DNA of 64,000 bases, taken from positions 130,688-194,687 of the forward strand of contig CAZCCG010000001.1 of the NCBI GenBank assembly GCA_964497535.1, given 5' to 3'. The notes under the pieces were generated by a model. It made no database searches. It was not told the origin of the DNA and was given only the letters and a program-made list of their open reading frames with translations. The position numbers and the translations under genes are program-made. This document shows, piece by piece, positions 16,433 through 48,369 of the stretch; within the stretch, counting starts at the first letter, position 1; every line of letters starts with the position of its first letter. The DNA is from an uncultured Gammaproteobacteria bacterium. Its GTDB lineage: Bacteria > Patescibacteriota > Microgenomatia > Levybacterales > UBA12049.

Positions 16433-17263
16433 TCATATAGTTCTGATTGTTTGGAGTACTTCACCAATCGCGTCATGATACGAGCTATTGGCAACAAATC
16501 CACCATGATCCTGTACAAATTGTTTGTATTCGTCACTCGCGTTGCCAACTGCCGCAACCAGTCCTCCTCTTTCAAGAAGCTGGGATGCGGCATCGATATC
16601 TCGATTATGATCGGCAATAAAAACAGTGGGGGTTGTATGAGGATCGATGGTATGAAGAGAGAGAAGTGTTTGGATGCCTTCTCTTTTGGAAAGTCCCCGG
16701 GGATCTATGTCAATTGCTTTTCCTACATCGATTCTGAAACGATCAGTACAGGCAAGCTCCTCAAGCACCGGTGCCACTTGATGCATTGCGTACTCATGGA
16801 TGTCACACTCTTTTGGGGGTACAATAACAGTTTTTATATATCCCATTCCGGGAAGAAATTGAGCTTCATCTGGTGAAAAAGGAATTGAGGCAACAGCCCC
16901 CTGTTCTTGGAGAGCCTGCCGCAGACGAGGAACATCATGGGATGCATATGTTTTCCATTGTGGGAGAACCGCTTGGGTATTATGTCCTACATCATAGAGT
17001 GATCCTCCACCTTCAGTAATCCATAAACCGTTCTTTTCTCCCAAATAATAAGCAACCGGTTGCATCTCCGAAGGTGGTCTATTGGTAAGTACAGAAACGG
17101 CGCCGCCATTTCGCCGAAAATCCTGCAAGTGCTTGGCCATTTGGACATACGCATCAGGATTAAGGGTATGAAATTGCGGCCATCGTAACACAACTCCATC
17201 AAGATCCAGAATAAGGAATTGTCGTGGTTTTGCTTCTATTTCTGCTGAAGGTCGTTCATGCAT
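16433..17263 (-). CDS. HAD-superfamily (IIB-like) phosphatase
   Basis: Motif I LILDLDGVV near the N-terminus, 276 aa. In an operon with the hexokinase-family gene. Confidence 0.5.
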   Translation of the reverse strand: MHERPSAEIEAKPRQFLILDLDGVVLRWPQFHTLNPDAYVQMAKHLQDFRRNGGAVSVLTNRPPSEMQPVAYYLGEKNGLWITEGGGSLYDVGHNTQAVLPQWKTYASHDVPRLRQALQEQGAVASIPFSPDEAQFLPGMGYIKTVIVPPKECDIHEYAMHQVAPVLEELACTDRFRIDVGKAIDIDPRGLSKREGIQTLLSLHTIDPHTTPTVFIADHNRDIDAASQLLERGGLVAAVGNASDEYKQFVQDHGGFVANSSYHDAIGEVLQTIRTI

Positions 17264-18167
17264 ATAATGCGTATTGTTGGTCTTGAGTAAGAAGACGGGC
17301 GGCAGTGGTTATATCGTCCTGGTCAGGAAGAATACCACCGATCCCAATATGTGTCAAATGGTATATTTCATGAAAATCCTCATGAGAGAGTGATCCTTTG
17401 TGTTTTTCTTCTGCAGCGATGATCCGTAATAAGTCTACATCCTGGGGATTAGGAGCGGATAATAATCGTTCCCGTTGGTCGCCGGTAATATCAATGAGTC
17501 GAAAAGCCTCCATTCCCAAATGAATGCCAATTGCAAACTTAATCCGATCAAACAATATATCTCTTCCTTCAATAGCCCGCAGAAGTTGTGGATAGATAAC
17601 GCGGGCTTGCATCGGAGTGAAGTATCTCTGATCAATAAAATCACGTGACTGCTCCGGGGGAGTAGGCCATTCGCTAATGACGCTTCCGTCTTCTAATTTC
17701 TGGCGGGGAGGCATGGTATCAACATACCACATGGTGCCTGTAGCGTCTTTGCAAAAGTTAGCAGGCGGAGGATCCAGTGAGATAGGAAATCCGGCATCCC
17801 ACACGGTTCTGAAAAGATCCAGGTACTGACTGATATCAGTCAGTACTTCTTCGTTGGTTGTGTTGGGGTCACCAAATGACACCCGCAGATCCGCTCCTGC
17901 CGGAGATACTACTTCAACCAGATTTACCTTTCCGGGATGCCCATTTTTTTCTATGTAATGTCCTTTTGTTTGAGAAACAGGTACTCCTATCTCTGCGGCA
18001 ATTGCCGCAAAGCTTCTCATATGCATCGCAATATCCATTGCATGAGACTGCTCAAATCCATGAGCTTTTTGTCCATATTGCTTCATCAAAAGTTCTGTTC
18101 CTTGGGAGGACATGACAGAAGAGATAACCGAGTGAAATCCTGATACTGTCCTTTGCTCAATTGCCAT
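17256..18167 (-). CDS. hypothetical protein (first gene of the hypothetical/HAD/hexokinase operon)
   Basis: The long ORF extends to 18386 but overlaps the divergent regulator gene. The internal ATG at 18167 (MAIEQRTVSG...) leaves a sensible divergent promoter region. No domain recognized. Confidence 0.4.
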   Translation of the reverse strand: MAIEQRTVSGFHSVISSVMSSQGTELLMKQYGQKAHGFEQSHAMDIAMHMRSFAAIAAEIGVPVSQTKGHYIEKNGHPGKVNLVEVVSPAGADLRVSFGDPNTTNEEVLTDISQYLDLFRTVWDAGFPISLDPPPANFCKDATGTMWYVDTMPPRQKLEDGSVISEWPTPPEQSRDFIDQRYFTPMQARVIYPQLLRAIEGRDILFDRIKFAIGIHLGMEAFRLIDITGDQRERLLSAPNPQDVDLLRIIAAEEKHKGSLSHEDFHEIYHLTHIGIGGILPDQDDITTAARLLTQDQQYALYA

Positions 18168-18281
18168 AACAACTATTCTAAAAGACTTCGTATTGTTGTG
18201 CTTGACGCTTAGGAAACACGGTTCTGACAAAGGGCTGACAACAACCGCATATTGATAACGGGTGGGCAAAACCAGTACAAT

Positions 18282-19616
18282 ATGATGCACCATACTATGG
18301 AAACAGTTAATCTTGAAGCGGAATACCCAATAACATTCCACGAAAAAGAAGCCAGAGAGCTGGGACAGCATCTCAAAAGTCACCACTCAGTAGTTCTGAT
18401 TGGGATGAAGCGCGTAGGAATCAGTAACTTTCTGCGGTTTTTCCTCTATCATAAAGATATTGCCACAACCTACATCGGAGATGGTAAAAAACATCTTTTT
18501 ATTCATGTTGATCTTAATAATCTCGTAGAACGGGAGATACCGGCCTTCTGGACATTGACACTCAAACGGATTGTAGATTCGATTGAAAACACGGATATCC
18601 CGGGTAATATCAAAGATGACATTGAGTCGCTCTTTATGGATAGTATCCAGTCCCAGGATCTGTTTATCACTATTGATAGTGTACGTAAAAGCCTGATGAT
18701 GCTCGTTGAACAAAATATCGAGCCTACCCTCTTTTTTGTTCTTTTTGACCGTATGCAAGATGCTATTACGGTAGAGTTCTTCGCAAATTTACAAGGAATA
18801 CAAGATGCGGTTCATGATCGATTGTCGTATGTATTCACCAGTTTTCGAAGCCTGGATGTTGTTTCTCCGCAAGTATTTACTCGTCCTTCCTTGGTTGTAT
18901 TTTCGCATGATTCATATATCCGACCTGCCAAAAGGGCAGATGTTGAAATTGTTTTTGAAACGCTGCGGCAACAGTATGATTTGGCTGTTTCAGATGAATT
19001 GAGAGAATGGATTTTTGAGCTAGTGGATGGATACATGCGATATTTACATCTGGCGCTAATCCATCTGAATGAGAAAAAGCCGACAGATTTCAAGACAAAA
19101 GAAGAGTTATTCAAGAGCCTTTTGGAAGATGAACGGATTTATTTCCAGTCGGAAGAGCTGTGGGAGAGTTTGAGCCCACAAGAACAAGAAGTGCTGGTAC
19201 AGATTGAGAAAAAGCAGAAAGTTTCAGAAGAGAAAAAAAAGCAGGCAAAATATGTATGGGATACAGGATTTATCTTTGATGGGAAAGGAAAGTGGAATAT
19301 CTTTAGCCCTTTATTTGAGCATTATGTGTCAGAAAAGGTATCAGGACAAAAAAGTGAGGGTATAGTAGCAGGAACCGTTGAATTTACCAAGAAAGAGCAT
19401 TTACTCTTTGATTATCTCAAGAAAAATATCAATGACGTATGCGAGCGGGAGAAAATTATCGAAGCAGTCTGGCCGGAAGTTGAGGCATTGGGGGTTTCAG
19501 ATTGGGCAGTTGATCGACTCGTTGCGCGGGTGAGAAACAAGATGAAAGAGCAGCAAAGCAAGTACGAGATACAAACTATCAAAACCCGGGGGTACAAGCT
19601 CGTTTCTACCGAGTAA
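18282..19616 (+). CDS. transcriptional regulator: N-terminal degenerate P-loop NTPase-like domain plus C-terminal OmpR/PhoB-type winged-helix DNA-binding domain
   Basis: The C-terminal EREKIIEAVWPEVEALGVSDWAVDRLVARVRNKMKE...IQTIKTRGYKLVS is a classic trans_reg_C wHTH. The N-terminus has a Walker-A-like VVLIGMKRVGISNF (Lys replaced by Ile) and Walker-B-like hydrophobic-DE/DR stretches. The ORF-track start at 18252 is a TTG; the first ATG is at 18282. Confidence 0.55.
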   Translation: MMHHTMETVNLEAEYPITFHEKEARELGQHLKSHHSVVLIGMKRVGISNFLRFFLYHKDIATTYIGDGKKHLFIHVDLNNLVEREIPAFWTLTLKRIVDSIENTDIPGNIKDDIESLFMDSIQSQDLFITIDSVRKSLMMLVEQNIEPTLFFVLFDRMQDAITVEFFANLQGIQDAVHDRLSYVFTSFRSLDVVSPQVFTRPSLVVFSHDSYIRPAKRADVEIVFETLRQQYDLAVSDELREWIFELVDGYMRYLHLALIHLNEKKPTDFKTKEELFKSLLEDERIYFQSEELWESLSPQEQEVLVQIEKKQKVSEEKKKQAKYVWDTGFIFDGKGKWNIFSPLFEHYVSEKVSGQKSEGIVAGTVEFTKKEHLLFDYLKKNINDVCEREKIIEAVWPEVEALGVSDWAVDRLVARVRNKMKEQQSKYEIQTIKTRGYKLVSTE

Positions 19617-19659
19617 ATCCTCCACTAACTAGTCATTTTAGCCTCAAAACTCTAAAAAT

Positions 19660-19714
19660 TCGTGAATTATTCGGGAATTGCATTCGGAAATAATTCGGGA
19701 AATTCTCGGGAATT
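19660..19714 (+). promoter_or_regulatory. array of five direct repeats T(T)CG(G/T)GAA(A/T)T at 10-14 bp spacing (candidate operator)
   Basis: Copies begin at 19660 (TCGTGAATT), 19671 (TCGGGAATT), 19685 (TCGGAAATA), 19695 (TCGGGAAAT) and 19706 (TCGGGAATT), i.e. helical-turn periodicity, immediately upstream of promoter P1. Confidence 0.5.
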
Positions 19715-19739
19715 GTAGGCATGAACCTATCCTATAGTC

Positions 19740-19768
19740 TTGACTTGTGGCTACGTTTTTGCTATACT
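19740..19768 (+). promoter_or_regulatory. sigma70-type promoter P1 (TTGACT, 17 bp, TATACT)
   Basis: TTGACT at 19740-19745, a 17-nt spacer, TATACT at 19763-19768, embedded in the conserved context CCTATAGTCTTGACT...GCTATACTTT. Confidence 0.55.
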
Positions 19769-19918
19769 TTTCAGTAGTAAATTTCCCCCCATAAGCGCAT
19801 TTTTTGCTTCTGTGGGATAATTTATTTGGACTTTGAAATAATCAGAATCTTATGGATGCCTTTGTGGGTATATGGATACCTACGGAGGTGTTCATAAGTA
19901 ATAGGAGGGGAGAAGTGC

Positions 19919-20155
19919 ATGAGTCAGATGCAGATGGGATATGTCCCTCCGGATGAAGGTTCCTCGAAAGCCGTCTGCGGATCGTGTTGTACAATTCAGA
20001 ACACGTACTCCGACTACTGCGGAGTAAGCTGGATTAAACAGCATCGTTTGCAAGATGGTTCCTTCTGTCCCGGAGGCAGTAAGTTTCCTAATCTCAACGT
20101 AAGTCTTGTGGGTTTGCTCGTTTCCAAGAGGCTGGAAGGAGAGAGTCATGAGTAG
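19919..20155 (+). CDS. small Cys-rich protein (78 aa), first gene of GC-rich cassette 1
   Basis: Strong RBS AGGAGG 8 nt upstream of the ATG. Sequence MSQMQMGYVPPDEGSSKAVCGSCCTIQNTYSDYCGVSWIKQHRLQDGSFCPGG... has 5 Cys. Its stop overlaps the next ATG (ATGAGTAG), suggesting translational coupling. Confidence 0.4.
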   Translation: MSQMQMGYVPPDEGSSKAVCGSCCTIQNTYSDYCGVSWIKQHRLQDGSFCPGGSKFPNLNVSLVGLLVSKRLEGESHE

Positions 20156-20534
20156 GATACAGCCTGAGATGTCGCAACAGGAGATCGCAGAATTCTGCCG
20201 GGAATGGCAGGCTCACCTTGCTCTCCTGGAGGGCAAGGTCAACCCGGAGTATCTGCTCATCGCGCGTTGCGCGGTAACGCCGGAGAATTTCGGCCGCGAG
20301 CAGGGGCAGCTGAGCCCCATTCGGGAGAATTCTCCCTTCGATCTGTATTTTCTCCTCGTTCCGGCACCGGGGGTGCCGGATGCCTTGCTCATCTGCAGAT
20401 TGCAGGCCGAGCAGGTGCAGGAGGCTCTTGACCAGGAGGATCCTAGCCGCGTGGAGATCGATATCTCCACGGTCGAAGGACGCCTCTTCAAACTCCAGCT
20501 CGAGTTGCTGGAGTTGGGCTATCCGCCCAGGTAG
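20148..20534 (+). CDS. hypothetical acidic protein (129 aa) in very GC-rich DNA, second gene of cassette 1
   Basis: RBS AAGGAGAG 5 nt upstream of the ATG at 20148. MSRIQPEMSQQEIAEFCREWQAHLALLEGKVNPEYLLIARCAVTPENFGREQ... Codon usage (CTG/GCC/GGC/CGC) is unlike the neighbours. The GC-richness also produces long stop-free ORFs in other frames. Confidence 0.45.
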   Translation: MSRIQPEMSQQEIAEFCREWQAHLALLEGKVNPEYLLIARCAVTPENFGREQGQLSPIRENSPFDLYFLLVPAPGVPDALLICRLQAEQVQEALDQEDPSRVEIDISTVEGRLFKLQLELLELGYPPR

Positions 20535-20542
20535 TTTCTCAC

Positions 20543-20576
20543 GCCGCCTTTCCCATCTGGGGGAGGCGGCTTTTTA
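20543..20576 (+). terminator. rho-independent terminator of cassette 1
   Basis: GCCGCCTTTCCC-ATCT-GGGGGAGGCGGC stem-loop followed by TTTTTA. Confidence 0.55.
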
Positions 20577-20590
20577 TGGGAATGAGTCTT

Positions 20591-20621
20591 TCGGGAATAA
20601 ATCGGGAAATCCTCGGGAATT
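20591..20621 (+). promoter_or_regulatory. second array of three TCGGGAA(A/T)T direct repeats at 11-bp spacing (plus a degenerate fourth upstream)
   Basis: Copies begin at 20591, 20602 and 20613. Same motif and spacing as the 19660-19714 array, upstream of promoter P2. Confidence 0.5.
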
Positions 20622-20650
20622 ATATCGTCACAGCACTTTACCCTATAGTA

Positions 20651-20679
20651 TTGCACTTGAGGATAAGATCTGCTATACT
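20651..20679 (+). promoter_or_regulatory. sigma70-type promoter P2 (TTGCAC, 17 bp, TATACT)
   Basis: CCTATAGTATTGCAC...17 nt...GCTATACTTTC, paralogous to P1. Confidence 0.5.
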
Positions 20680-20720
20680 TTCTACGCTAGCCACATTCGC
20701 ATCAATGAAAGGACATATCT

Positions 20721-20891
20721 ATGTCTACATGTGGTACCCCGGCAGACCTGGGATATTATTCCGCCTTGATTAAGGACAAGCAGGAAAAATTGGCGATAAC
20801 AGCTTATCCGCAGGTCAAGCAATGTCTTGACTCTCAATGCCCGAGGTGTACGTGGCTCTTTACCCAGTTGCAGCAGCCAATTAGCTCGTAG
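20721..20891 (+). CDS. small Cys-containing peptide (56 aa), cassette 2
   Basis: MSTCGTPADLGYYSALIKDKQEKLAITAYPQVKQCLDSQCPRCTWLFTQLQQPISS with an AAAGGA RBS about 8 nt upstream. Not in the ORF track because it is under 60 aa. GC-elevated and followed by a hairpin. Confidence 0.3.
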   Translation: MSTCGTPADLGYYSALIKDKQEKLAITAYPQVKQCLDSQCPRCTWLFTQLQQPISS

Positions 20892-20896
20892 CATCC

Positions 20897-20940
20897 TAGC
20901 CGCTTATCCCTTTGGGATAGGCGGCTCATTTACTTTTATA
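20897..20940 (+). terminator. putative terminator hairpin of cassette 2
   Basis: TAGCCGCTTATCCC-TTTG-GGATAGGCGGCT stem-loop (similar in sequence to the cassette 1 terminator) followed by the T-rich stretch TTTACTTTTA. Confidence 0.4.
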
Positions 20941-20983
20941 GCCATCTCTTTATAGCAGCCTCACTTCATGTTACAATGACGCC

Positions 20984-23221
20984 ATGGAAAAAAGTTATAA
21001 TCCCAAAGAAGCAGAAGAAAAAATTTATAAGTTTTGGGAAGAAAAAGGCTACTTCAAATCCAATATTAATAAAAGTAAAAAGCCGTTTACTATTCTCCTT
21101 CCTCCTCCTAATGCAAGCGGTCGCATGCATACAGGGAACGTACTCATGATTGCTATTGAAGATTTGCTAATTCGATGGCATCGGATGAAGGGTGATCCTA
21201 CATTATGGATACCAGGCACTGATCATGCAGGGACTGAAACACAAATTACTTTTGAGCGAGAACTCAAGAAGCAAGGGAAATCACGATTCAATTTCAACCG
21301 GGAAGATTTATATAAGCAGATTTGGAATTTTGTACAAAACAATAGACATGTAATTGAAGACCAAATTAAAGAAATGGGAGCTTCAGTTGATTGGTCTCGT
21401 TATACTTTCACATTGGATGACAAAGTTATCAAGACAGTATATGCGACATTTAAGAAAATGACTGATGATGGGTTGGTATATCGTGGGGAGTACATGGTTA
21501 ATTATTGCCCGAAATGTGGCACAACGTATTCAGATGTTGAAATCTCACATATTGAACGAAAAGACCCGCTGTATTATATGAAATATGGACCGTTTGTCTT
21601 GGCAACCGTTCGACCGGAGACTAAATTTGGAGATACAGCAGTTGCAGTAAATCCGAAAGACAAGAGATACAAAGAATGGATTGGAAAAGAAATCGAAGTT
21701 GAGGGGTTAATTGGCAAAGTGACACTGAAAGTTATTGGGGATGATTATGTTGATCAGAAGTTTGGAACAGGAGTAGTAAAGGTGACTCCGGCTCATGACA
21801 AAAATGATTACGATGCCGGATTGCGACACCATCTTGAGATCCGTCCGGTGATTGATTTAAATGGAAAGCTCAATGAGCGAGCAGGAAAATATGCAGGGCT
21901 GAGTGTATTTGAAGCTCGCAAAAAGGTTGTTGAAGACCTGGAAGAAAAGGGACTTATCGAGAAAATGGATGAAAATTATCTCCATACGATTTCTGTATGC
22001 AAAGCAGGGCATGAAATCGAACCCATGGTTTTACCCAATTGGTTTATTCGAGTTGATGACAAAAAAAAGTCATTAAAGAAACCGGCATATGATGCCGTAA
22101 AGAGCGGACAAGTAAAGATTCTTCCTAAATGGCAGGAGAAACGGTACTTTTCATGGATTGAGGAAATGCGAGATTGGCCGATTTCTCGACAGAATACATG
22201 GGGGATTAGGATCCCTGTTTGGTATTCTTTAGAAAAAAACCCAACACTTCAAGTATCATATTTGAAAAATGATGGTCAGAGGGTCATTCGCAGTGGTGAA
22301 GGAATACTAGAAAAAAATGAATTTGAAGAAGCACAAAAAGGTCTTCAAAAAATCATCGCTCCAATCCAATGTACATCTGAGCTTGAGCCGTCATCTCCAA
22401 AAGAACATTATTTACAAGAAACAGACACTTTTGATACGTGGTTTTCCTCAGGTCAATGGCCCCTGGTGACTCTTGGTTATCCTGACTCTGAAGATTTCAA
22501 ATATTTTTATCCCACTTCGGTTATGGAGACTGGATGGGAAATTATGAGACTGTGGGTTTCTCGCATGATTATGTTCGGGATGTATATGACCGGTAAGCCG
22601 CCATTTGAATATGTATACCTTCATGGTCGTGTTATGGCTCCCGATGGTAGAAAGATGAGTAAGTCATTGGGAAATGTGATTAACCCCGAAGAATACCTCG
22701 ATCAATATGGGGCTGATGCTCTCCGGATGGGGCTTATTTCCGGAACCGCGACAGGACAGGATTTTTCCTTTCCGAAAGACAAAATTTTGGGCTACAAGCA
22801 TTTTGCCAATAAGATTTGGAATATGGCCCGGTTTATGCTCATGATGATAGACGAGTACGGTAAAGAGTTGTCCTTGGTTGAAGATCTTGCCAAAGACCAA
22901 CTTACCACAGAAGATAGGGTAATCCTTTCAGACCTGAATAAGCTGATCAAAGTGGTTGACGCATCTTTGGAGAAGTTCCGCTTTACCGATGCAGCAGAAG
23001 GTATTTATCAATTTATGTGGCATACTCTGGCAGATAAATATATAGAGGAAGTTAAAAAACGGGAAGATAAAGAAGTTGCTCTTTCAGTGTTAAGGCATGT
23101 ATATATGACAAGTTTGACGCTCCTTCATCCTTTTATGCCCTTTGTAACAGAAGCAATTTATCAGCAGATACCAGGGAGAAAAAGTGAATCGATTATGATA
23201 CAAAAATGGCCCTCGGAATAA
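20984..23221 (+). CDS. valS: valine--tRNA ligase (short form, no C-terminal coiled coil)
   Basis: PPPNASGRMHTGNV...LWIPGTDHAGTETQ, the editing-domain motifs (RPETKFGDTAVAVNP, GTGVVKVTPAHDKNDY) and KMSKSLGNVINP. Note that the HIGH signature reads HTGN. Confidence 0.85.
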   Translation: MEKSYNPKEAEEKIYKFWEEKGYFKSNINKSKKPFTILLPPPNASGRMHTGNVLMIAIEDLLIRWHRMKGDPTLWIPGTDHAGTETQITFERELKKQGKSRFNFNREDLYKQIWNFVQNNRHVIEDQIKEMGASVDWSRYTFTLDDKVIKTVYATFKKMTDDGLVYRGEYMVNYCPKCGTTYSDVEISHIERKDPLYYMKYGPFVLATVRPETKFGDTAVAVNPKDKRYKEWIGKEIEVEGLIGKVTLKVIGDDYVDQKFGTGVVKVTPAHDKNDYDAGLRHHLEIRPVIDLNGKLNERAGKYAGLSVFEARKKVVEDLEEKGLIEKMDENYLHTISVCKAGHEIEPMVLPNWFIRVDDKKKSLKKPAYDAVKSGQVKILPKWQEKRYFSWIEEMRDWPISRQNTWGIRIPVWYSLEKNPTLQVSYLKNDGQRVIRSGEGILEKNEFEEAQKGLQKIIAPIQCTSELEPSSPKEHYLQETDTFDTWFSSGQWPLVTLGYPDSEDFKYFYPTSVMETGWEIMRLWVSRMIMFGMYMTGKPPFEYVYLHGRVMAPDGRKMSKSLGNVINPEEYLDQYGADALRMGLISGTATGQDFSFPKDKILGYKHFANKIWNMARFMLMMIDEYGKELSLVEDLAKDQLTTEDRVILSDLNKLIKVVDASLEKFRFTDAAEGIYQFMWHTLADKYIEEVKKREDKEVALSVLRHVYMTSLTLLHPFMPFVTEAIYQQIPGRKSESIMIQKWPSE

Positions 23222-23750: not shown

Positions 23751-24386
23751 ATGAAAAAGATGAGCTGGAAGCCGCCATTTTATAAACACAAGAAGAAGGT
23801 TTTTGAAAAAGTTCTCAGTGTGAGTAGCTTTATACATCAAATTGGTGAATCTGATAACCTGCGGAAACCTTCTGCTCAAGTTCCTCTGGCAACAATTACA
23901 AGTCAAGCATTTCAAAAGAAAGTTCAGTACTTAAAGTCATGTATGAGAAAGTATCGTAAGCTGACCGGGGCTGGAAGAGGAATAACAGCTGTTCAAATTG
24001 GCATACCTGAGTGTTTTTCCGTCATATACATGCCTCAATTGAAAGGTAACCTTCTTATTGTTATCAATCCGAAGATTACCAAAAAATCAAAAGAACTATT
24101 GAAGTATCCGGAAGTATGTATGAGCGCAAATCCGATTATTGCTTCAGTTACTCGTCCTGCATGGATAGAATTTGAATATTATGATGAAGCAGGAAAGAAG
24201 CAGCATTGGAATATCAAAGCAGATACAAAAGAAGGTACTTTGTACAATCGGGTTTTCCAGCATGAAATCGACCATATGCATGGTATTATTAATATAGATC
24301 TGGTTAATTCCAATACTCTTATTTTCGAATCAGATCCCACATTTTATGTCAAAGCGGCGTTCGAAAAAGTTAAAAGCACAAATTAG
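23751..24386 (+). CDS. def: peptide deformylase
   Basis: Motif 1 GAGRGITAVQIG, motif 2 EVCMSAN and motif 3 QHEIDHMHG (the HExxH metal site). Confidence 0.7.
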   Translation: MKKMSWKPPFYKHKKKVFEKVLSVSSFIHQIGESDNLRKPSAQVPLATITSQAFQKKVQYLKSCMRKYRKLTGAGRGITAVQIGIPECFSVIYMPQLKGNLLIVINPKITKKSKELLKYPEVCMSANPIIASVTRPAWIEFEYYDEAGKKQHWNIKADTKEGTLYNRVFQHEIDHMHGIINIDLVNSNTLIFESDPTFYVKAAFEKVKSTN

Positions 24387-24798
24387 AGCCCAAAAGGCTG
24401 CCAAAATAACTGCCGAAGTAGTCAAAGTTGAACCTCAAAAACGACCGCGAAAGAAATTTCTTCAAAAACTCTTCATGGACTGGTTTTTTATTGCCAGTCT
24501 TCTGATGCTTCTTCTTATTTTTGCGATAGGAATTATTGGGGTAGATGTGAAGCGAAATACACAGCGGCTGGAAGAAAAAATGACTGCCCAACATGGTGTG
24601 GAACAACAAAAAAAGAAATGGGAGGGAATTGTGAGCAAGTATCCCAATTATCGGGATGGATATTTCAAAGCAGCACAGTATGAATATCAACTGGGAGATA
24701 AGAAAAAAGCGTTGGCAAATGTACAACAGGCGCTTTTTATAGATCCAAATTTCGAAATCGGGAGAAAATTTGAGGCTTTTCTAAAATCCAAACAATAA
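24346..24798 (+). CDS. hypothetical single-TM protein with a TPR-like C-terminus
   Basis: Basic N-terminus, TM helix FFIASLLMLLLIFAIGIIGV, and a C-terminal helical repeat. Overlaps the def end by 41 nt; the real start may be the internal Met at about 24475 (MDWFF...). Confidence 0.3.
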   Translation: MSKRRSKKLKAQIRAQKAAKITAEVVKVEPQKRPRKKFLQKLFMDWFFIASLLMLLLIFAIGIIGVDVKRNTQRLEEKMTAQHGVEQQKKKWEGIVSKYPNYRDGYFKAAQYEYQLGDKKKALANVQQALFIDPNFEIGRKFEAFLKSKQ

Positions 24799-45762: not shown

Positions 45763-46019
45763 AGCTACATTATAAAATATATTTGAAGAGTTTGATTGAC
45801 AAAAACGAGCCTAATTGCTGACAAAATAAAGACGGGAAGAGGTGGGGAAGAGAGGAGCCGAAAAAAACACGAAAAAGAAAAATGATACAGTTAATATTAG
45901 TGATGTAGTATGATATAGTTATTGTCTTATAGTGTAAAGTTGTCGTAGACAGACGATGACTGCTAATCCTTTTCACGATATCCTATAATTTTCACAGGAT
46001 GCATACAATTGCATGGGGA

Positions 46020-46028
46020 TGTGGATAA
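46020..46028 (-). promoter_or_regulatory. isolated perfect DnaA-box 9-mer (TGTGGATAA on plus strand)
   Basis: Lies within the 580-bp non-coding region 45763-46343. May be coincidental. Confidence 0.25.
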
Positions 46029-46343
46029 GTGATAGAGCGCGTTGGGTGTGGCACGTAGCATGTAGAGAACAAAATAAAGTATTATATTTGATATTAACTA
46101 CACGCTATACGCTACTAACTACACGCTGCTACGGATGCTCTTCTCTATTACTGGATTGGAGAAGTACCCCGCTCTTTCATATGTCTACGTCGCACAATAA
46201 ATGTTGGCAGATTGTCATAAGAAATTGTGGACAATCCGCCGATTCTATAATCATTATAATTTTTATAAAAGTTATAAGAATTATAGTGAGAAAATTCGAA
46301 GAGATTTTTGCGGATTAGAGAGAGTCTTCTCTCCTCCATTCAC

Positions 46344-47462
46344 TCAGGAGTATTGGTTTATAAAGAATTCTACGTTTTGGCGTGCCTGGGAATCGGTAAA
46401 TTGCTTGGGAGGAGACTTCATAAAGTAAGAAGATGGTTCTTCTAAAGGTCCCCCAATCTTGTGATCCAATGCAATTTTACAGCAGCGAATAGCATCAATT
46501 ACAACGCCTGCGGAGTTGGGTGAATCTTCTACGGATAGTCGTACTTCAATATCCATGGGTATATCTCCAAAATGCCTGCCTTCAATTCTAATAAATGCGA
46601 GTTTGTTGTCTTTGAGCCATGGTACATAATCACTGGGTCCGATATGCACATCATCTGAATCGATATCCAGATCGTGCAATTTGATTTGTGAGGTAACCGA
46701 TCTGGTTTTTGAGATTTTCTTGGACGTAAGACGTTTTCTCTCAAGCATATTTTGGAAATCAGTATTGCCCCCAACGTTTAGTTGATATGTCCGGTCAATC
46801 GGCATCCCTCGATCCAGGAATAAATTAACCAAGGTTCTGTGTACTATCGTTGCCCCAACTTGTGATTTGATATCATCTCCGATAATTGGAACTTTTGCAT
46901 CTATAAATTTCTTTGCCCATGCTGGATCTGACGCTATAAAAACAGGTATACAATTAATCATTGCAACTTTGGCTTTGAGACAGACCTGTGCCCAATATTC
47001 TGTTGCTTTCTGACTGCCAACGGGTAAATAATTAACCAGAATTTGTGCACCGCTATTTTTGAGTATTTCGACAGGGTCTGTGATTTTTTCTTGACTGAGG
47101 GTAATAAGATCTTTTACATACTCTCCTACCCCATCCATTGCCCTGGCATTATGAACCTTTATACCGGTCCGTTTTACTTTGGCAAAAATAACCGTATTAT
47201 TCGGATATGCATACATTGCATCAGCAAGGTCTTTGCCTACTTTTGTTTTGTTGATGTCAAATGCAGCGACTATTTCAATATCTGAAATGGTATATCCTCC
47301 CAGTACCGTATGCATCAGCCCTACCACACGTTTTTCATCTTTCACATTTTTGTAATAGGTTAATCCCTGAACCAATGATGATGCACAGTTCCCTACTCCC
47401 AGTAATGCTACTTTAATAGGTGAATTTTCTATTTTCTTTTTTCGAGTTGTAATGCGTGCCAT
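46344..47462 (-). CDS. myo-inositol-1-phosphate synthase
   Basis: VALLGVGNCASSLVQGL Rossmann motif, NVGGNTDFQNMLERKRLTSKKISK (MIPS NxGGNxDF motif), 372 aa from the ATG at 47462. Confidence 0.75.
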   Translation of the reverse strand: MARITTRKKKIENSPIKVALLGVGNCASSLVQGLTYYKNVKDEKRVVGLMHTVLGGYTISDIEIVAAFDINKTKVGKDLADAMYAYPNNTVIFAKVKRTGIKVHNARAMDGVGEYVKDLITLSQEKITDPVEILKNSGAQILVNYLPVGSQKATEYWAQVCLKAKVAMINCIPVFIASDPAWAKKFIDAKVPIIGDDIKSQVGATIVHRTLVNLFLDRGMPIDRTYQLNVGGNTDFQNMLERKRLTSKKISKTRSVTSQIKLHDLDIDSDDVHIGPSDYVPWLKDNKLAFIRIEGRHFGDIPMDIEVRLSVEDSPNSAGVVIDAIRCCKIALDHKIGGPLEEPSSYFMKSPPKQFTDSQARQNVEFFINQYS

Positions 47463-47532
47463 ATATGAGTATAATAACAAACAATAGTTAGCAAGTAAAA
47501 TTAATGTATTTTATTATCCATAAATAATAATT

Positions 47533-48369
47533 ATGAATATTGAGTTGGAACGATTTATTACACTTGTCCAAATAGGTTCTTTTACCAAAGCTTCAGAAAA
47601 ACTATTTATTACCCAACCTGCTCTCTCTCTTTCCATCCAGAGGCTTGAAAAAGAATTGGGAGTGCGTTTATTTCGTTCCGTTGCTAAACATATCCATCTG
47701 ACATCCGAGGGAGAATTGATATATGAGATTGCTTTGGGAATGCAGCGGCTCTGGCATAGTGCCAAAGATATAAAAACAACATACCGTGCATTATCAAAAT
47801 ATAGATTTGGATTATATGATAATGCTGCATTAAAACTATCAAAATATTTTCAAAAAAAGCTTGAAAAAGATCGGTTTGAAATTGGGATAGATCGGTCTCT
47901 GTCTCTATTAAAAAGCCTCAATAGTGGTATTTTTGATGTAGTAATTTGTGTTGTTCCCGAAGATTTAAAGTTTTTCCCAAATGTTATTTTAGTTCATTCA
48001 TTTTCGGAATTGTTGGTACCAGTATCAGAAAAAAAATGGAGAGAAGAAGTTTCACAAATCCCATTTATACTCTACAACAAGGGGTCGGAGACGCAGCGAT
48101 ACATTGATATGGTATTTTTAGAACATGGGATAAAACCGAAGGTTATTGTGGAATCAACAGATCCATCATTTATGCGGCAATTAGCGCTTGGAAATTGTGG
48201 CGTAGCGATTTTGCCCAGAAATATTGTCGAACAAGAATTAAAACGAAAAAAACTATTTATCCAAAGACTTCCTTTTCAATTCCGCAGAAATGTTGGAGTA
48301 TTTATTGGAAAAAATAGCACAATCAAAGAGGATAAAAAAGTTCTTACTGAGATAGTGAAGTATCTATAG
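47533..48369 (+). CDS. LysR-family transcriptional regulator
   Basis: N-terminal HTH LERFITLVQIGSFTKASEKLFITQPALSLSIQRLEKELGVRLF plus a substrate-binding domain. Divergent from the inositol-phosphate synthase gene. Confidence 0.7.
   Translation: MNIELERFITLVQIGSFTKASEKLFITQPALSLSIQRLEKELGVRLFRSVAKHIHLTSEGELIYEIALGMQRLWHSAKDIKTTYRALSKYRFGLYDNAALKLSKYFQKKLEKDRFEIGIDRSLSLLKSLNSGIFDVVICVVPEDLKFFPNVILVHSFSELLVPVSEKKWREEVSQIPFILYNKGSETQRYIDMVFLEHGIKPKVIVESTDPSFMRQLALGNCGVAILPRNIVEQELKRKKLFIQRLPFQFRRNVGVFIGKNSTIKEDKKVLTEIVKYL

What the first reader, a model, noticed from the sequence alone, without database searches (positions are those of the whole stretch)
18282..19616. Unusual regulator architecture: degenerate P-loop NTPase-like domain fused to a C-terminal OmpR/PhoB winged helix
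trans_reg_C domains normally follow a receiver domain (response regulators) or sit N-terminal (ToxR/CadC, SARP regulators). Here the winged helix follows a roughly 330-aa domain with a Walker-A-like GMKRVGIS (the Lys is replaced by Ile, so it is probably ATP-binding-defective) and Walker-B-like segments, reminiscent of STAND/Orc-Cdc6-like ATPases. The gene sits immediately upstream of the phased TTCGGGAAT arrays.
Basis: partly seen in the sequence, partly recalled or inferred. Interest (0 to 1): 0.6.

Follow-up and report, generated by a model that had tools for sequence, protein, structure and literature searches.

The report
Dead-ATPase STAND regulator with OmpR tail
This gene encodes a DNA-binding regulator, conserved across one lineage of ultra-small (CPR) bacteria, that pairs an ORC/STAND-type ATPase module whose ATP-site residues are all replaced with an OmpR-type DNA-binding domain, and it most likely binds conserved triple TCGGGAA repeats around the valyl-tRNA synthetase gene.

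Summary
In front of it is a roughly 350-aa P-loop, lid and winged-helix module. The closest solved folds are an archaeal Walker-type ATPase (2qen) and Orc1/Cdc6/ORC subunits.

The Walker A lysine is Ile in 120/120 close homologues. The Walker B Glu is Arg in 120/120, and the STAND GxP motif is also lost. More distant Chloroflexi relatives have the same architecture with intact GKS, DE/DD and GHPG, and they hit Pfam nSTAND1/AAA_35. The architecture is therefore uncharacterised but not unique, and this Levybacteria/Microgenomates clade is its degenerate branch.

The repeats are real and conserved. Triple TCGGGAA boxes at exactly 11-bp phase occur 40 times in 80 related loci and never in simulations. 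They lie at two places:
- Upstream of valS, usually 31 nt before an extended -10.
- Inside the 5' coding region of a downstream membrane-protein gene, where fixed rare codons show selection on the DNA.

Best reading: a probably nucleotide-independent STAND scaffold that positions OmpR-type domains on these operators. The binding itself and the sign of regulation are inferred. Verdict: new variant of a known kind, interest about 0.6.

The parts
18252..18281 (+). Predicted promoter of the regulator gene (TTGATA-18-TACAAT). It leaves only a very short leader before ATG 18297.
   Evidence: Consensus scan, 10/12 matches. This is a prediction only.
18297..19616 (+). Regulator CDS, 439 aa: NBD-lid-WHD (STAND/ORC-like NOD), a linker, then an OmpR-type wHTH.
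   Evidence: ORF. There are 1,655 homologues, mostly 430-440 aa. AF2 model pLDDT 88.4. Foldseek hits.
18402..18425 (+). Degenerate Walker A / P-loop, G36-M-K-R-V-G-I42-S43, with Ile in place of the canonical Lys.
   Evidence: Aligns to GIRRVGKS of 2qen. GI[SN] in 120/120 close homologues, against GKS in 115/117 Chloroflexi relatives.
18732..18752 (+). Degenerate Walker B strand, FFVLFDR (aa 146-152), with D151-R152 instead of D-E/D-D.
   Evidence: DR in 120/120 close homologues. Relatives mostly have DE or DD.
19029..19040 (+). Degenerate STAND GxP motif: G245-Y-M-R here (GY[VI]Q in the clade) against GHPG in intact relatives.
   Evidence: hmmalign census and alignment A3.
19098..19355 (+). 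Helical plus small winged-helix domain of the NOD (aa 268-353), followed by a low-confidence linker (aa 353-362).
   Evidence: AF2 secondary structure and pLDDT. A weak AAA_35 C-terminal hit covers this part (E 0.013, below the cut-off).
19374..19607 (+). OmpR/PhoB-type winged helix (Trans_reg_C): alpha1-beta-alpha2-loop-alpha3-beta hairpin. It lacks the usual N-terminal four-stranded sheet.
   Evidence: Pfam 53.4 bits. PDB profile hits to ArlR, CovR, PhoB and ToxR DNA-binding domains. AF2 secondary structure. Chloroflexi relatives carry about 25 extra residues here.
19659..19714 (+). Array 1: five TTCGGGAAT-like boxes (spacings 11, 13, 11, 11 bp). The core triple box is at 19683-19714 (PWM 44.8 bits).
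19740..19768 (+). Predicted promoter P1 (TTGACT-17-TGcTATACT), downstream of array 1.
   Evidence: It shares sequence with P2.
19919..20534 (+). Cassette of two overlapping orphan ORFs (78 aa Cys-rich; 128 aa) behind array 1/P1. GC is 49-60% against about 40% elsewhere. A terminator-like hairpin follows at 20543-20570.
   Evidence: orf128 has no homologue other than itself.
20590..20621 (+). Array 2: triple box TTCGGGAATAAATCGGGAAATCCTCGGGAATT, 11-bp phase (PWM 50.8 bits).
20651..20679 (+). Predicted promoter P2 (TTGCAC-17-TGcTATACT). It is followed by a 56-aa ORF (20721-20891) and a terminator-like hairpin (20898-20926).
   Evidence: Read from the sequence. Alignment with P1. Hairpin. The hexamer pair is below the scan's threshold, so this is the weakest promoter call.
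20949..20977 (+). valS proximal promoter with extended -10 TGTTACAAT, 6 nt before the valS ATG (leaderless-like).
   Evidence: The same TGnTAnAAT element lies 6-10 nt before the valS ATG in related loci.
20984..23221 (+). valS (valyl-tRNA synthetase), the conserved gene downstream of the arrays.
   Evidence: Synteny in 50/80 loci. Pfam tRNA-synt_1 on the L205 orthologue.
24346..24798 (+). Small single-pass membrane protein with a TPR-like C-terminus ('TM150'). In most related genomes its 5' coding region carries the second array. The window's copy does not.

Best explanation
The gene encodes a sequence-specific transcription factor built from two parts. The first is a STAND/ORC-Cdc6-type nucleotide-binding oligomerisation module (P-loop domain, lid, winged helix). 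The second is a C-terminal OmpR/PhoB-type winged helix.

In this Levybacteria/Microgenomates (CPR) clade the nucleotide site is dismantled: Walker A Lys to Ile, Walker B Glu to Arg, and GxP lost. The module therefore most likely no longer works as an NTP-driven switch. It probably serves as a fixed scaffold or oligomerisation platform (inferred).

The OmpR-type domains most likely bind head-to-tail to three TCGGGAA boxes spaced 11 bp apart, the same 7 + 4 bp design as a PhoB pho box (inferred from conserved linkage, not shown). One operator sits upstream of the valS promoter. Its last box typically ends 31 nt before an extended -10, so by my estimate from that spacing the boxes centre near -49, -60 and -71. 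A second operator is embedded in the 5' coding region of the membrane-protein gene downstream of valS.

The regulator thus most likely controls the valS-TM150 unit. In this window it would also control strain-specific cassettes that have landed behind duplicated copies of the operator. The upstream position fits activation. The intragenic site fits a roadblock or loop. The sign of regulation cannot be decided from sequence.
For: Architecture (shown):
- Pfam Trans_reg_C at 53 bits.
- AF2 model with pLDDT 88.
- Foldseek top hits are 2qen, archaeal ORC2/Orc1/Cdc6, ORC4/5, SSO1545, Avs3 and CED-4.
- The P-loop aligns with 2qen.

Degeneracy (shown):
- GI[SN], DR and GY[VI]Q in 120/120 close homologues.
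- GKS in 115/117, DE/DD and GHPG in 93/117 Chloroflexi relatives of the same architecture.
- Those relatives hit nSTAND1/AAA_35 above the Pfam cut-offs.

Operator (shown to be conserved DNA; binding inferred):
- 40 strict triple-box arrays in 80 loci (908 kb), against 0 in 20 simulated sets.
- Positions outside the 7-mer used for selection are also conserved.
- An unbiased metagenome scan returns high-scoring arrays at the valS/TM150 locus and, with one exception (L197), nowhere else.
- Array classes: 72 at the TM150 5' end, 42 upstream of valS.
- Box 3 to TGnTAnAAT spacing is 28-32 nt in 14 of 20 cases, mode 31.
- At the intragenic site Pro is CCG 36/36 (background 24%), Arg is CGA 32/35 (13%) and Phe is TTC 24/24 (20%), while the encoded amino acids vary.
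- The window has no other site in 64 kb.
- The recognition helix (SDWAIDRLVARVR) and the box sequence are both near-invariant across the clade.
Against: - There are no binding data. The regulator-array link rests on adjacency in 50/80 loci and on the fit between an OmpR-type domain and 11-bp direct repeats.
- In 30/80 loci the regulator is not next to valS and has no array within 6 kb. Some valS/TM150 arrays have no regulator within about 11 kb. Adjacency is therefore not obligatory, and co-occurrence per genome was not tested.
- About a quarter of the arrays upstream of valS are inverted, with variable spacing.
- In this window the arrays lie 47-51 nt from the predicted -10, not 31 nt.
- Loss of nucleotide binding is inferred from motifs only. 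K38/R39 remain in the loop. A subgroup of relatives with intact GKS also has D-R at Walker B.
- Oligomerisation was not modelled.
Confidence: 0.6

Rival explanations
1. The N-terminal module is still a working nucleotide switch. It would bind ATP/ADP or another ligand through non-canonical residues (for example K38/R39 in the loop) and gate DNA binding, as MalT and other STAND regulators do.
For: The fold, the glycine framework of the P-loop (G36, G41), the Walker B Asp (D151) and a Ser/Thr after the Ile are all conserved. The whole module is under strong purifying selection, at 55-63% identity across the clade. Some relatives with intact GKS also carry D-R at Walker B.
Against: Three separate nucleotide-contacting motifs changed together and stayed fixed in every member: Lys to Ile, Glu to Arg, and GHPG to GY[VI]Q. 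The 2qen P-loop likewise carries two Arg at the positions of K38/R39 (GIRRVGKS), so these basic residues look ancestral rather than compensatory. From general knowledge of P-loop NTPases, replacing the Walker A Lys usually abolishes nucleotide binding.
Confidence: 0.2
2. The triple-box arrays are operators of a different, unidentified factor. The regulator is merely syntenic with valS and acts on other targets.
For: The arrays track valS/TM150 rather than the regulator when insertions separate them (L015, L027, L178). 30/80 regulator loci have no array nearby. The regulator's own promoter region has no array.
Against: The box design (7-bp core, A/T-rich 4-bp spacer, 11-bp phase) is the classic target type of OmpR/PhoB domains. 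That statement rests on my knowledge of PhoB pho boxes, not on a test here. The arrays found in the collections searched come from genomes of the type that encodes this family. Both the recognition helix and the box are invariant across the clade. No other DNA-binding gene is conserved in the locus.
Confidence: 0.15
3. It is an ORC/Cdc6- or DnaA-like chromosome-handling protein (replication origin, partition or nucleoid organisation), and the arrays are its loading sites.
For: The domain order AAA+-like, lid, winged helix with a C-terminal DNA-binding domain and phased repeats recalls initiators. The best fold matches include Orc1/Cdc6 bound to origin DNA.
Against: Each array has only three boxes. 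The arrays sit at a promoter with fixed spacing to a -10 element. The cumulative GC skew of the window turns at about 46-48 kb, not at the arrays. The ATP site that initiators need is destroyed.
Confidence: 0.03
4. It is a component of a STAND-based conflict or defence system, like its Chloroflexi relatives.
For: Two intact relatives lie beside genes with TCAD9/APH, caspase/EAD7 and GAF-histidine-kinase domains. nSTAND1 was defined in such systems (PMC8195603).
Against: In the CPR clade the neighbours are housekeeping genes (valS, pdf, L25, ruvC) in conserved order. No effector or sensor domains are attached or adjacent. The protein matched no family other than Trans_reg_C above threshold.
Confidence: 0.03

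Closest known systems
nSTAND1 / AAA_35 STAND NTPases fused to Trans_reg_C (uncharacterised 'winged helix-turn-helix transcriptional regulators' of Anaerolineae/Chloroflexi)
   Same: Same domain order and length (about 445-455 aa). Homologous over the whole N-terminal module (profile E 1e-19 to 1e-25). Same C-terminal OmpR-type domain.
   Different: The relatives keep Walker A GKS, Walker B DE/DD, a sensor-1 TR and GHPG, and the full OmpR domain with its N-terminal sheet. In the two loci examined they lie in conflict-system-like neighbourhoods. The window's clade has lost all of these motifs and about 25 residues of the wHTH, and it sits next to valS.
Archaeal Walker-type ATPases (2qen PABY2304, 2fna SSO1545; Pfam ATPase_2) and Orc1/Cdc6
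   Same: Best structural matches, with P-loop, lid and winged-helix domains in the same order. The P-loop context G-x-[KR]-R-V-G-x-S is shared with 2qen.
   Different: These proteins have a functional GK[ST] loop and no OmpR-type domain. Orc1/Cdc6 binds origins through its own winged helix and an initiator-specific motif.
STAND-type transcription regulators: MalT/LAL family, and large SARPs such as AfsR
   Same: A NOD-type NTPase coupled to a DNA-binding output. Large SARPs even use an OmpR-type DNA-binding domain (PMC7040171).
   Different: MalT/LAL regulators end in a LuxR-type HTH and carry sensor repeats. Large SARPs have the OmpR-like domain plus BTAD at the N-terminus, followed by the NTPase and TPRs. 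Those that have been characterised depend on ATP (from memory). Here the order is reversed, there is no BTAD or sensor repeat, and the ATP site is degenerate.
PhoB/OmpR response regulators and their direct-repeat operators
   Same: The winged helix is of this family. The operator design is a 7-bp core with a 4-bp A/T-rich spacer and 11-bp phase, placed upstream of or abutting the -35 region. This resembles pho boxes and OmpR sites (my knowledge of those systems).
   Different: There is no receiver domain and no phospho-acceptor Asp. There are three boxes rather than two or multiples of two. One operator lies inside a coding region.

Membership tests
OmpR/PhoB-type winged helix (Pfam Trans_reg_C, PF00486) | Significant match to the family profile. 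| tested here: met
   E 2.7e-14, 53.4 bits against a cut-off of 26.2, covering profile positions 3-77 of 77. Profile hits to solved ArlR, CovR, PhoB and ToxR domains.
OmpR/PhoB-type winged helix (Pfam Trans_reg_C, PF00486) | Fold alpha1-beta-alpha2-alpha3(recognition)-beta hairpin, preceded by a four-stranded N-terminal sheet. | tested here: inconclusive
   The AF2 model shows H365-376, E381-383, H384-391, H402-418 and the hairpin E423-437. No N-terminal sheet is present. Chloroflexi relatives have the extra segment.
Two-component response regulator (OmpR subfamily) | N-terminal receiver (CheY-like) domain with a phospho-acceptor Asp. | tested here: not met
   No Response_reg hit. NCBIfam response-regulator models match only the C-terminal 80 residues and stay far below their cut-offs. 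The N-terminal fold is P-loop/ORC-like.
STAND NTPases (nSTAND1 PF20703 / AAA_35 PF14516) | NBD, helical lid and winged-helix (NOD) fold. | tested here: met
   AF2 domain layout. Foldseek hits to 2qen, Orc/Cdc6, Avs3 and CED-4 with probability 1.0, E 4e-6 to 3e-4.
STAND NTPases (nSTAND1 PF20703 / AAA_35 PF14516) | Direct profile match of this protein above the curated cut-off. | tested here: not met
   Only AAA_35 at E 0.013, 14.8 bits against 27. Membership is transitive: homologous relatives reach nSTAND1 at 39.7 against 27.1 and AAA_35 at 35 against 27.
STAND NTPases (nSTAND1 PF20703 / AAA_35 PF14516) | Walker A GxxxxGK[ST]. | tested here: not met
   GMKRVGIS. Ile in 120/120 close homologues.
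STAND NTPases (nSTAND1 PF20703 / AAA_35 PF14516) | Walker B hhhhD[DE], and the GxP motif of the helical domain. | tested here: not met
   FDR (D-R) in 120/120. GY[VI]Q replaces GHPG.
STAND NTPases (nSTAND1 PF20703 / AAA_35 PF14516) | C-terminal sensor repeats (TPR, WD40, LRR and similar). | tested here: not met
   Nothing but the wHTH follows the NOD.
STAND NTPases (nSTAND1 PF20703 / AAA_35 PF14516) | Nucleotide-dependent oligomerisation. | not testable with these tools
   This needs biochemistry or multimer modelling.
Orc1/Cdc6 initiators | Functional ATP site and association with a replication origin. | tested here: not met
   The ATP motifs are degenerate. The arrays sit at promoters with fixed -10 spacing. 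The skew turn in the window is at about 46-48 kb.
Large SARP (AfsR-type) regulators | N-terminal OmpR-like DNA-binding domain plus BTAD, then NTPase and TPR. | tested here: not met
   No BTAD or TPR hit. The DNA-binding domain is C-terminal. Family description taken from PMC7040171.

The most novel reading that the evidence does not exclude
A former conflict-system STAND NTPase has been domesticated in CPR bacteria as a nucleotide-free 'pseudo-ATPase' scaffold. It would assemble a fixed number of OmpR-type heads, three per operator and possibly six per complex. The complex would bridge two triple-box operators, one at the leaderless valS promoter and one written into the coding sequence of the downstream gene. 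If so, it is a dedicated protein regulator of an aminoacyl-tRNA synthetase operon, working by DNA looping or roadblock in organisms with very few transcription factors.
Probability: 0.25. Interest if true: 0.75.

Novelty: new variant of a known kind. Interest (0 to 1): 0.6.

Why it matters
STAND and AAA+ regulators are understood as nucleotide-driven switches. Here a whole clade has fixed Ile at the Walker A lysine, Arg at the Walker B glutamate and a lost GxP motif, while the fold stays under strong selection. That makes it a natural test of what such a module does without its nucleotide.

The family also comes with a very clean, conserved candidate operator and a small, defined target set (valS and a membrane protein). 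That is rare for uncultivated CPR bacteria, whose gene regulation is almost unknown.

The operator embedded in a coding sequence shows DNA-level selection overriding codon preference. Protein-mediated control of valS would differ from the T-box and attenuation mechanisms known for aminoacyl-tRNA synthetase genes elsewhere.

Practically, the protein and its 31-bp site are small enough for immediate in vitro testing.

Tried and rejected
- **No RNA family.** Rfam on 19500-21100 found no T-box, riboswitch or other family. An RNA-level explanation of the leader and arrays was dropped. The arrays also occur in both orientations, and upstream of the TSS.
- **No antisense promoter.** I looked for a conserved -10 at the valS-type spacing on the minus strand downstream of the TM150 arrays. 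None was consistent, so an antisense-promoter reading was rejected.
- **TM150 start codon.** The idea that the TM150 start is mis-called and the array is intergenic was rejected. The frame is open from an upstream ATG through the array in all 22 loci inspected, and always in the same frame.
- **Other family members.** I searched for arrays near more distant K-to-I family members (L203, L204) and near Chloroflexi relatives (L201, L202). Nothing convincing turned up.
- **Two arrays per locus.** A strict 'two arrays per locus' rule failed. Among complete loci, 25 have one upstream plus one TM150 array, but 22 have only the TM150 array at PWM >= 25.
- **Cassette ORFs.** orf78, orf128 and orf56 gave no Pfam hit, and orf128 has no homologue.
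- **Literature.** Searches for nSTAND1, TCAD9, STAND + Trans_reg_C, and CPR + OmpR + regulon found no description of this family.
Full report
**The gene**

The ORF runs to 19616 on the plus strand. Three in-frame starts are possible: TTG 18252, ATG 18282 and ATG 18297. Homologues begin at the residues encoded from 18297 (METVN...), and the identical database protein is 439 aa. A TTGATA-18-TACAAT promoter-like site ends at 18281. I therefore take 18297-19616 as the gene. All residue numbers below use that start.

**C-terminal domain**

- Pfam Trans_reg_C matches at E 2.7e-14 (53.4 bits, cut-off 26.2) over essentially the whole profile.
- NCBIfam response-regulator models match only this last 80-residue stretch, far below their cut-offs.
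- A family profile finds the solved DNA-binding domains of ArlR, CovR, CpxR, WalR, ToxR and PhoB.
- In the AlphaFold2 model (28-sequence alignment, mean pLDDT 88.4, pTM 0.78) this part folds as alpha1-beta-alpha2-loop-alpha3-beta hairpin. It lacks the N-terminal four-stranded sheet. More distant relatives keep about 25 extra residues there.

**N-terminal module**

The model shows an alpha/beta P-loop-type domain (aa 1-210), a helical lid (213-260) and a helical plus small winged-helix domain (268-353). A low-confidence linker follows.

Foldseek against the PDB returns these matches, all with probability 1.0 and E 4e-6 to 3e-4:
- the Pyrococcus Walker-type ATPase 2qen (top hit);
- Aeropyrum ORC2 and Orc1, Sulfolobus Orc1/Cdc6, and Pyrobaculum Cdc6;
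- eukaryotic ORC4/5 and the archaeal AAA+ protein SSO1545;
- further down, Avs3, CED-4 and RFC.

By sequence, LIGMKRVGISNFLRFFL aligns with LLGIRRVGKSSLLRAFL of 2qen. This places Ile42 exactly at the Walker A lysine.

**Is the degeneracy real and conserved?**

| Motif | 120 closest homologues (55-100% identical) | 117 homologues of a distant relative (P0256) |
|---|---|---|
| Walker A | G-I-[SN], 120/120 | GKS, 115/117 |
| Walker B | D-R, 120/120 | mostly DE or DD |
| Sensor-1-like | TS[FYV]R | ATR |
| GxP | GY[VI]Q | GHPG, 93/117 |

Cluster representatives of the wider CPR clade show the same pattern as the close homologues.

The P0256 homologues are annotated as winged helix-turn-helix regulators of Anaerolineae/Chloroflexi. 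They have the same length and the same C-terminal Trans_reg_C. The intact relatives hit Pfam nSTAND1 and AAA_35 above the curated cut-offs. The window protein itself only grazes AAA_35 (E 0.013).

The architecture STAND-NOD + C-terminal OmpR wHTH is therefore a broad, uncharacterised family: 864 clusters at 50% identity match the N-terminal-module profile (E <= 0.001), though not all of them carry the wHTH. The Levybacteria/Microgenomates proteins are a branch in which three nucleotide-contacting motifs were replaced and then frozen. K38 and R39 in the loop have basic counterparts in 2qen (R, R), so they are not obviously compensatory. Loss of nucleotide binding is an inference from the motifs.

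**The repeats**

Array 1 has five boxes at 19659-19714. Array 2 has three at 20590-20621. No other two- or three-box site exists in the 64-kb window.

- In 80 related loci from GTDB genomes, triple TCGGGAA boxes (at most 1 mismatch each, at most 2 in total) at exactly 11 + 11 bp occur 40 times in 908 kb. They occur 0 times in 20 Markov simulations.
- The consensus is tTCGGKAATAnnTCGGGAAATnyTCGGGAATT. Information is also present at flanking positions that were not used for selection. There is no conserved fourth box.
- A metagenome-wide scan for the pattern returned 120 loci. About 45 of them are low-GC and high-scoring. All of those are the valS/TM150 locus. The rest are chance or tandem-repeat matches, plus one oddity, L197.

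**Where the arrays sit**

The conserved gene order is regulator, valS, (pdf), a 150-aa membrane/TPR-like protein ('TM150'), then L25 on the other strand, then ruvC. With a PWM threshold of 25 bits:
- 42 arrays lie upstream of valS, 33 in the same orientation as valS and 9 inverted;
- 72 lie in the 5' part of TM150, all but two in the inverted orientation.

For same-orientation arrays upstream of valS, the last box ends 28-32 nt (mode 31) before an extended -10, TGnTAnAAT, in 14 of the 20 cases with a recognisable -10. The valS ATG follows 6-10 nt later, so the mRNA is leaderless or nearly so. By my estimate from that spacing, the three boxes centre near -49, -60 and -71.

The TM150 array is always in the same reading frame. 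The three boxes are read in three different frames as F/S-P-x-I-x-R-x-I-T/P-E. The codons are fixed against the local preference, while the amino acids vary:

| Residue | Codon at the array | Background use of that codon |
|---|---|---|
| Pro | CCG, 36/36 | 24% |
| Arg | CGA, 32/35 | 13% |
| Phe | TTC, 24/24 | 20% |
| Thr | ACC, 25/25 | 18% |

This is selection on the DNA, so the array is an operator written into a coding sequence. In several genomes the TM150 ATG follows valS within a few nucleotides. The gene is therefore probably co-transcribed with valS.

**This window in particular**

TM150 (24346-24798) has no array here. Instead two arrays lie between the regulator and valS, each followed by a similar predicted promoter (CCTATAGT...TTGnnn-17-TGCTATACT) and a small cassette.

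- Array 1 precedes a GC-rich pair of orphan ORFs (19919-20534), followed by a terminator-like hairpin.
- Array 2 precedes a 56-aa ORF, also followed by a terminator-like hairpin.
- valS has its own TGTTACAAT element 6 nt before the ATG.

The closest relative (79% identical regulator, L205) also has two upstream arrays and none in TM150. Its first array is followed at exactly 31 nt by TGTTATAAT and a different 77-aa ORF. Other genomes carry a toxin-antitoxin-like pair or other small genes in the same spacer. The regulator-valS spacer is an insertion hotspot, and inserted genes end up behind the operator.

**Mechanism**

Shown:
- the fold and domain order;
- the conserved loss of the ATP-site motifs;
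- the existence, phasing, conservation and positions of the operators, including DNA-level selection inside a gene.

Inferred:
- that this protein binds the boxes (supported by the target type typical of OmpR/PhoB domains, conserved adjacency, an invariant recognition helix and an invariant box);
- that the NOD acts as a nucleotide-independent scaffold or oligomerisation device;
- that three heads bind head-to-tail.

The upstream position is typical of activation. The intragenic site suggests a roadblock or loop formation with the upstream site. I cannot decide the sign of regulation.

Against a simple picture:
- 30/80 regulator loci are not next to valS and show no array within 6 kb;
- 22 of 57 complete loci have only the TM150 site at the threshold used;
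- inverted upstream arrays have variable spacing;
- in this window the arrays are 47-51 nt from the predicted -10.

**Comparison with known systems**

It works like a STAND-type transcription factor (MalT/LAL, AfsR-type large SARPs) with a PhoB-like DNA-reading head. It is a member of none of them:
- it has no LuxR HTH and no BTAD or TPR;
- its DNA-binding domain is at the other end from that of SARPs (PMC7040171);
- it has no receiver domain.

It is homologous to nSTAND1/AAA_35-type NTPases, a clade defined in bacterial conflict systems (PMC8195603). Two intact Chloroflexi relatives indeed lie beside TCAD9/APH, caspase/EAD7 and GAF-kinase genes. The CPR clade fails the defining nucleotide-motif tests and sits among housekeeping genes. 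No paper describing the family or its operator was found.

**Verdict**

The finding extends to a conserved candidate operator and target set. It is a new variant of a known kind, of moderate-to-high interest (0.6). The main open points are binding, nucleotide independence, stoichiometry and the sign of regulation. All are directly testable with a small protein and a 31-bp site.

Noticed in passing
window 19919-20534: Two overlapping orphan ORFs (78 aa, Cys-rich; 128 aa) have 49-60% GC in a genome of about 40% GC. They sit between the two arrays and are followed by a strong terminator-like hairpin (20543-20570). They have no Pfam hit, and orf128 has no homologue except itself. This looks like a recently acquired cassette captured behind the regulated promoter.
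   Followed up: partly
L004:7394-7970, L027:7325-7585, L018:7413-7979, L205:7437-7670: The spacer between the regulator and valS holds different small genes in different genomes. L004 has an RHH-antitoxin/MazF-like pair. L205 has an unrelated 77-aa ORF placed exactly 31 nt + TGTTATAAT after the array. The spacer appears to be an insertion hotspot.
   Followed up: partly
window 20949-20986; L001, L002, L015, L026, L027, L115, L152, L178: The valS ATG lies only 6-10 nt after an extended -10 (TGnTAnAAT) with no Shine-Dalgarno sequence. This implies leaderless or near-leaderless valS mRNAs in this clade. The regulator gene itself also has a very short predicted leader.
   Followed up: partly
L197:2096-2127 and L197:14-1138: A Bacteroidetes-like metagenome contig carries three TTCCCGAA boxes at 11-bp phase (PWM 42.6 bits). 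They lie about 1 kb from an ORF that looks like an archaeal-type Walker ATPase (GKT loop, DEF Walker B) without an OmpR domain. This is a single case and may be coincidence.
   Followed up: no
L201:3221-4897, L202:6384-9125 and neighbours: Intact Chloroflexi relatives of the regulator lie next to proteins with Response_reg + TCAD9 + APH domains, a caspase (Peptidase_C14) + EAD7 protein, and large GAF histidine kinases. These are neighbourhoods typical of STAND-based conflict systems.
   Followed up: partly
L004, L005, L008, L009 and many other loci: Many GTDB records that carry this Levybacteria-type locus (regulator-valS-TM150-L25-ruvC) are titled 'uncultured Gammaproteobacteria bacterium'. 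That title does not fit the gene content and is probably a placeholder label in those assemblies.
   Followed up: no
window ~46000-48000: The cumulative GC skew rises steadily to about 46-48 kb and then falls, and GC content dips to 35-37% there. This may be a replication origin or terminus. It is unrelated to the arrays at 19.6-20.6 kb.
   Followed up: no
window 17256-18386 (minus strand): The divergently oriented upstream ORF (up to 376 aa) has no Pfam match. It has tblastn matches in only 2 of the 80 related loci.
   Followed up: no
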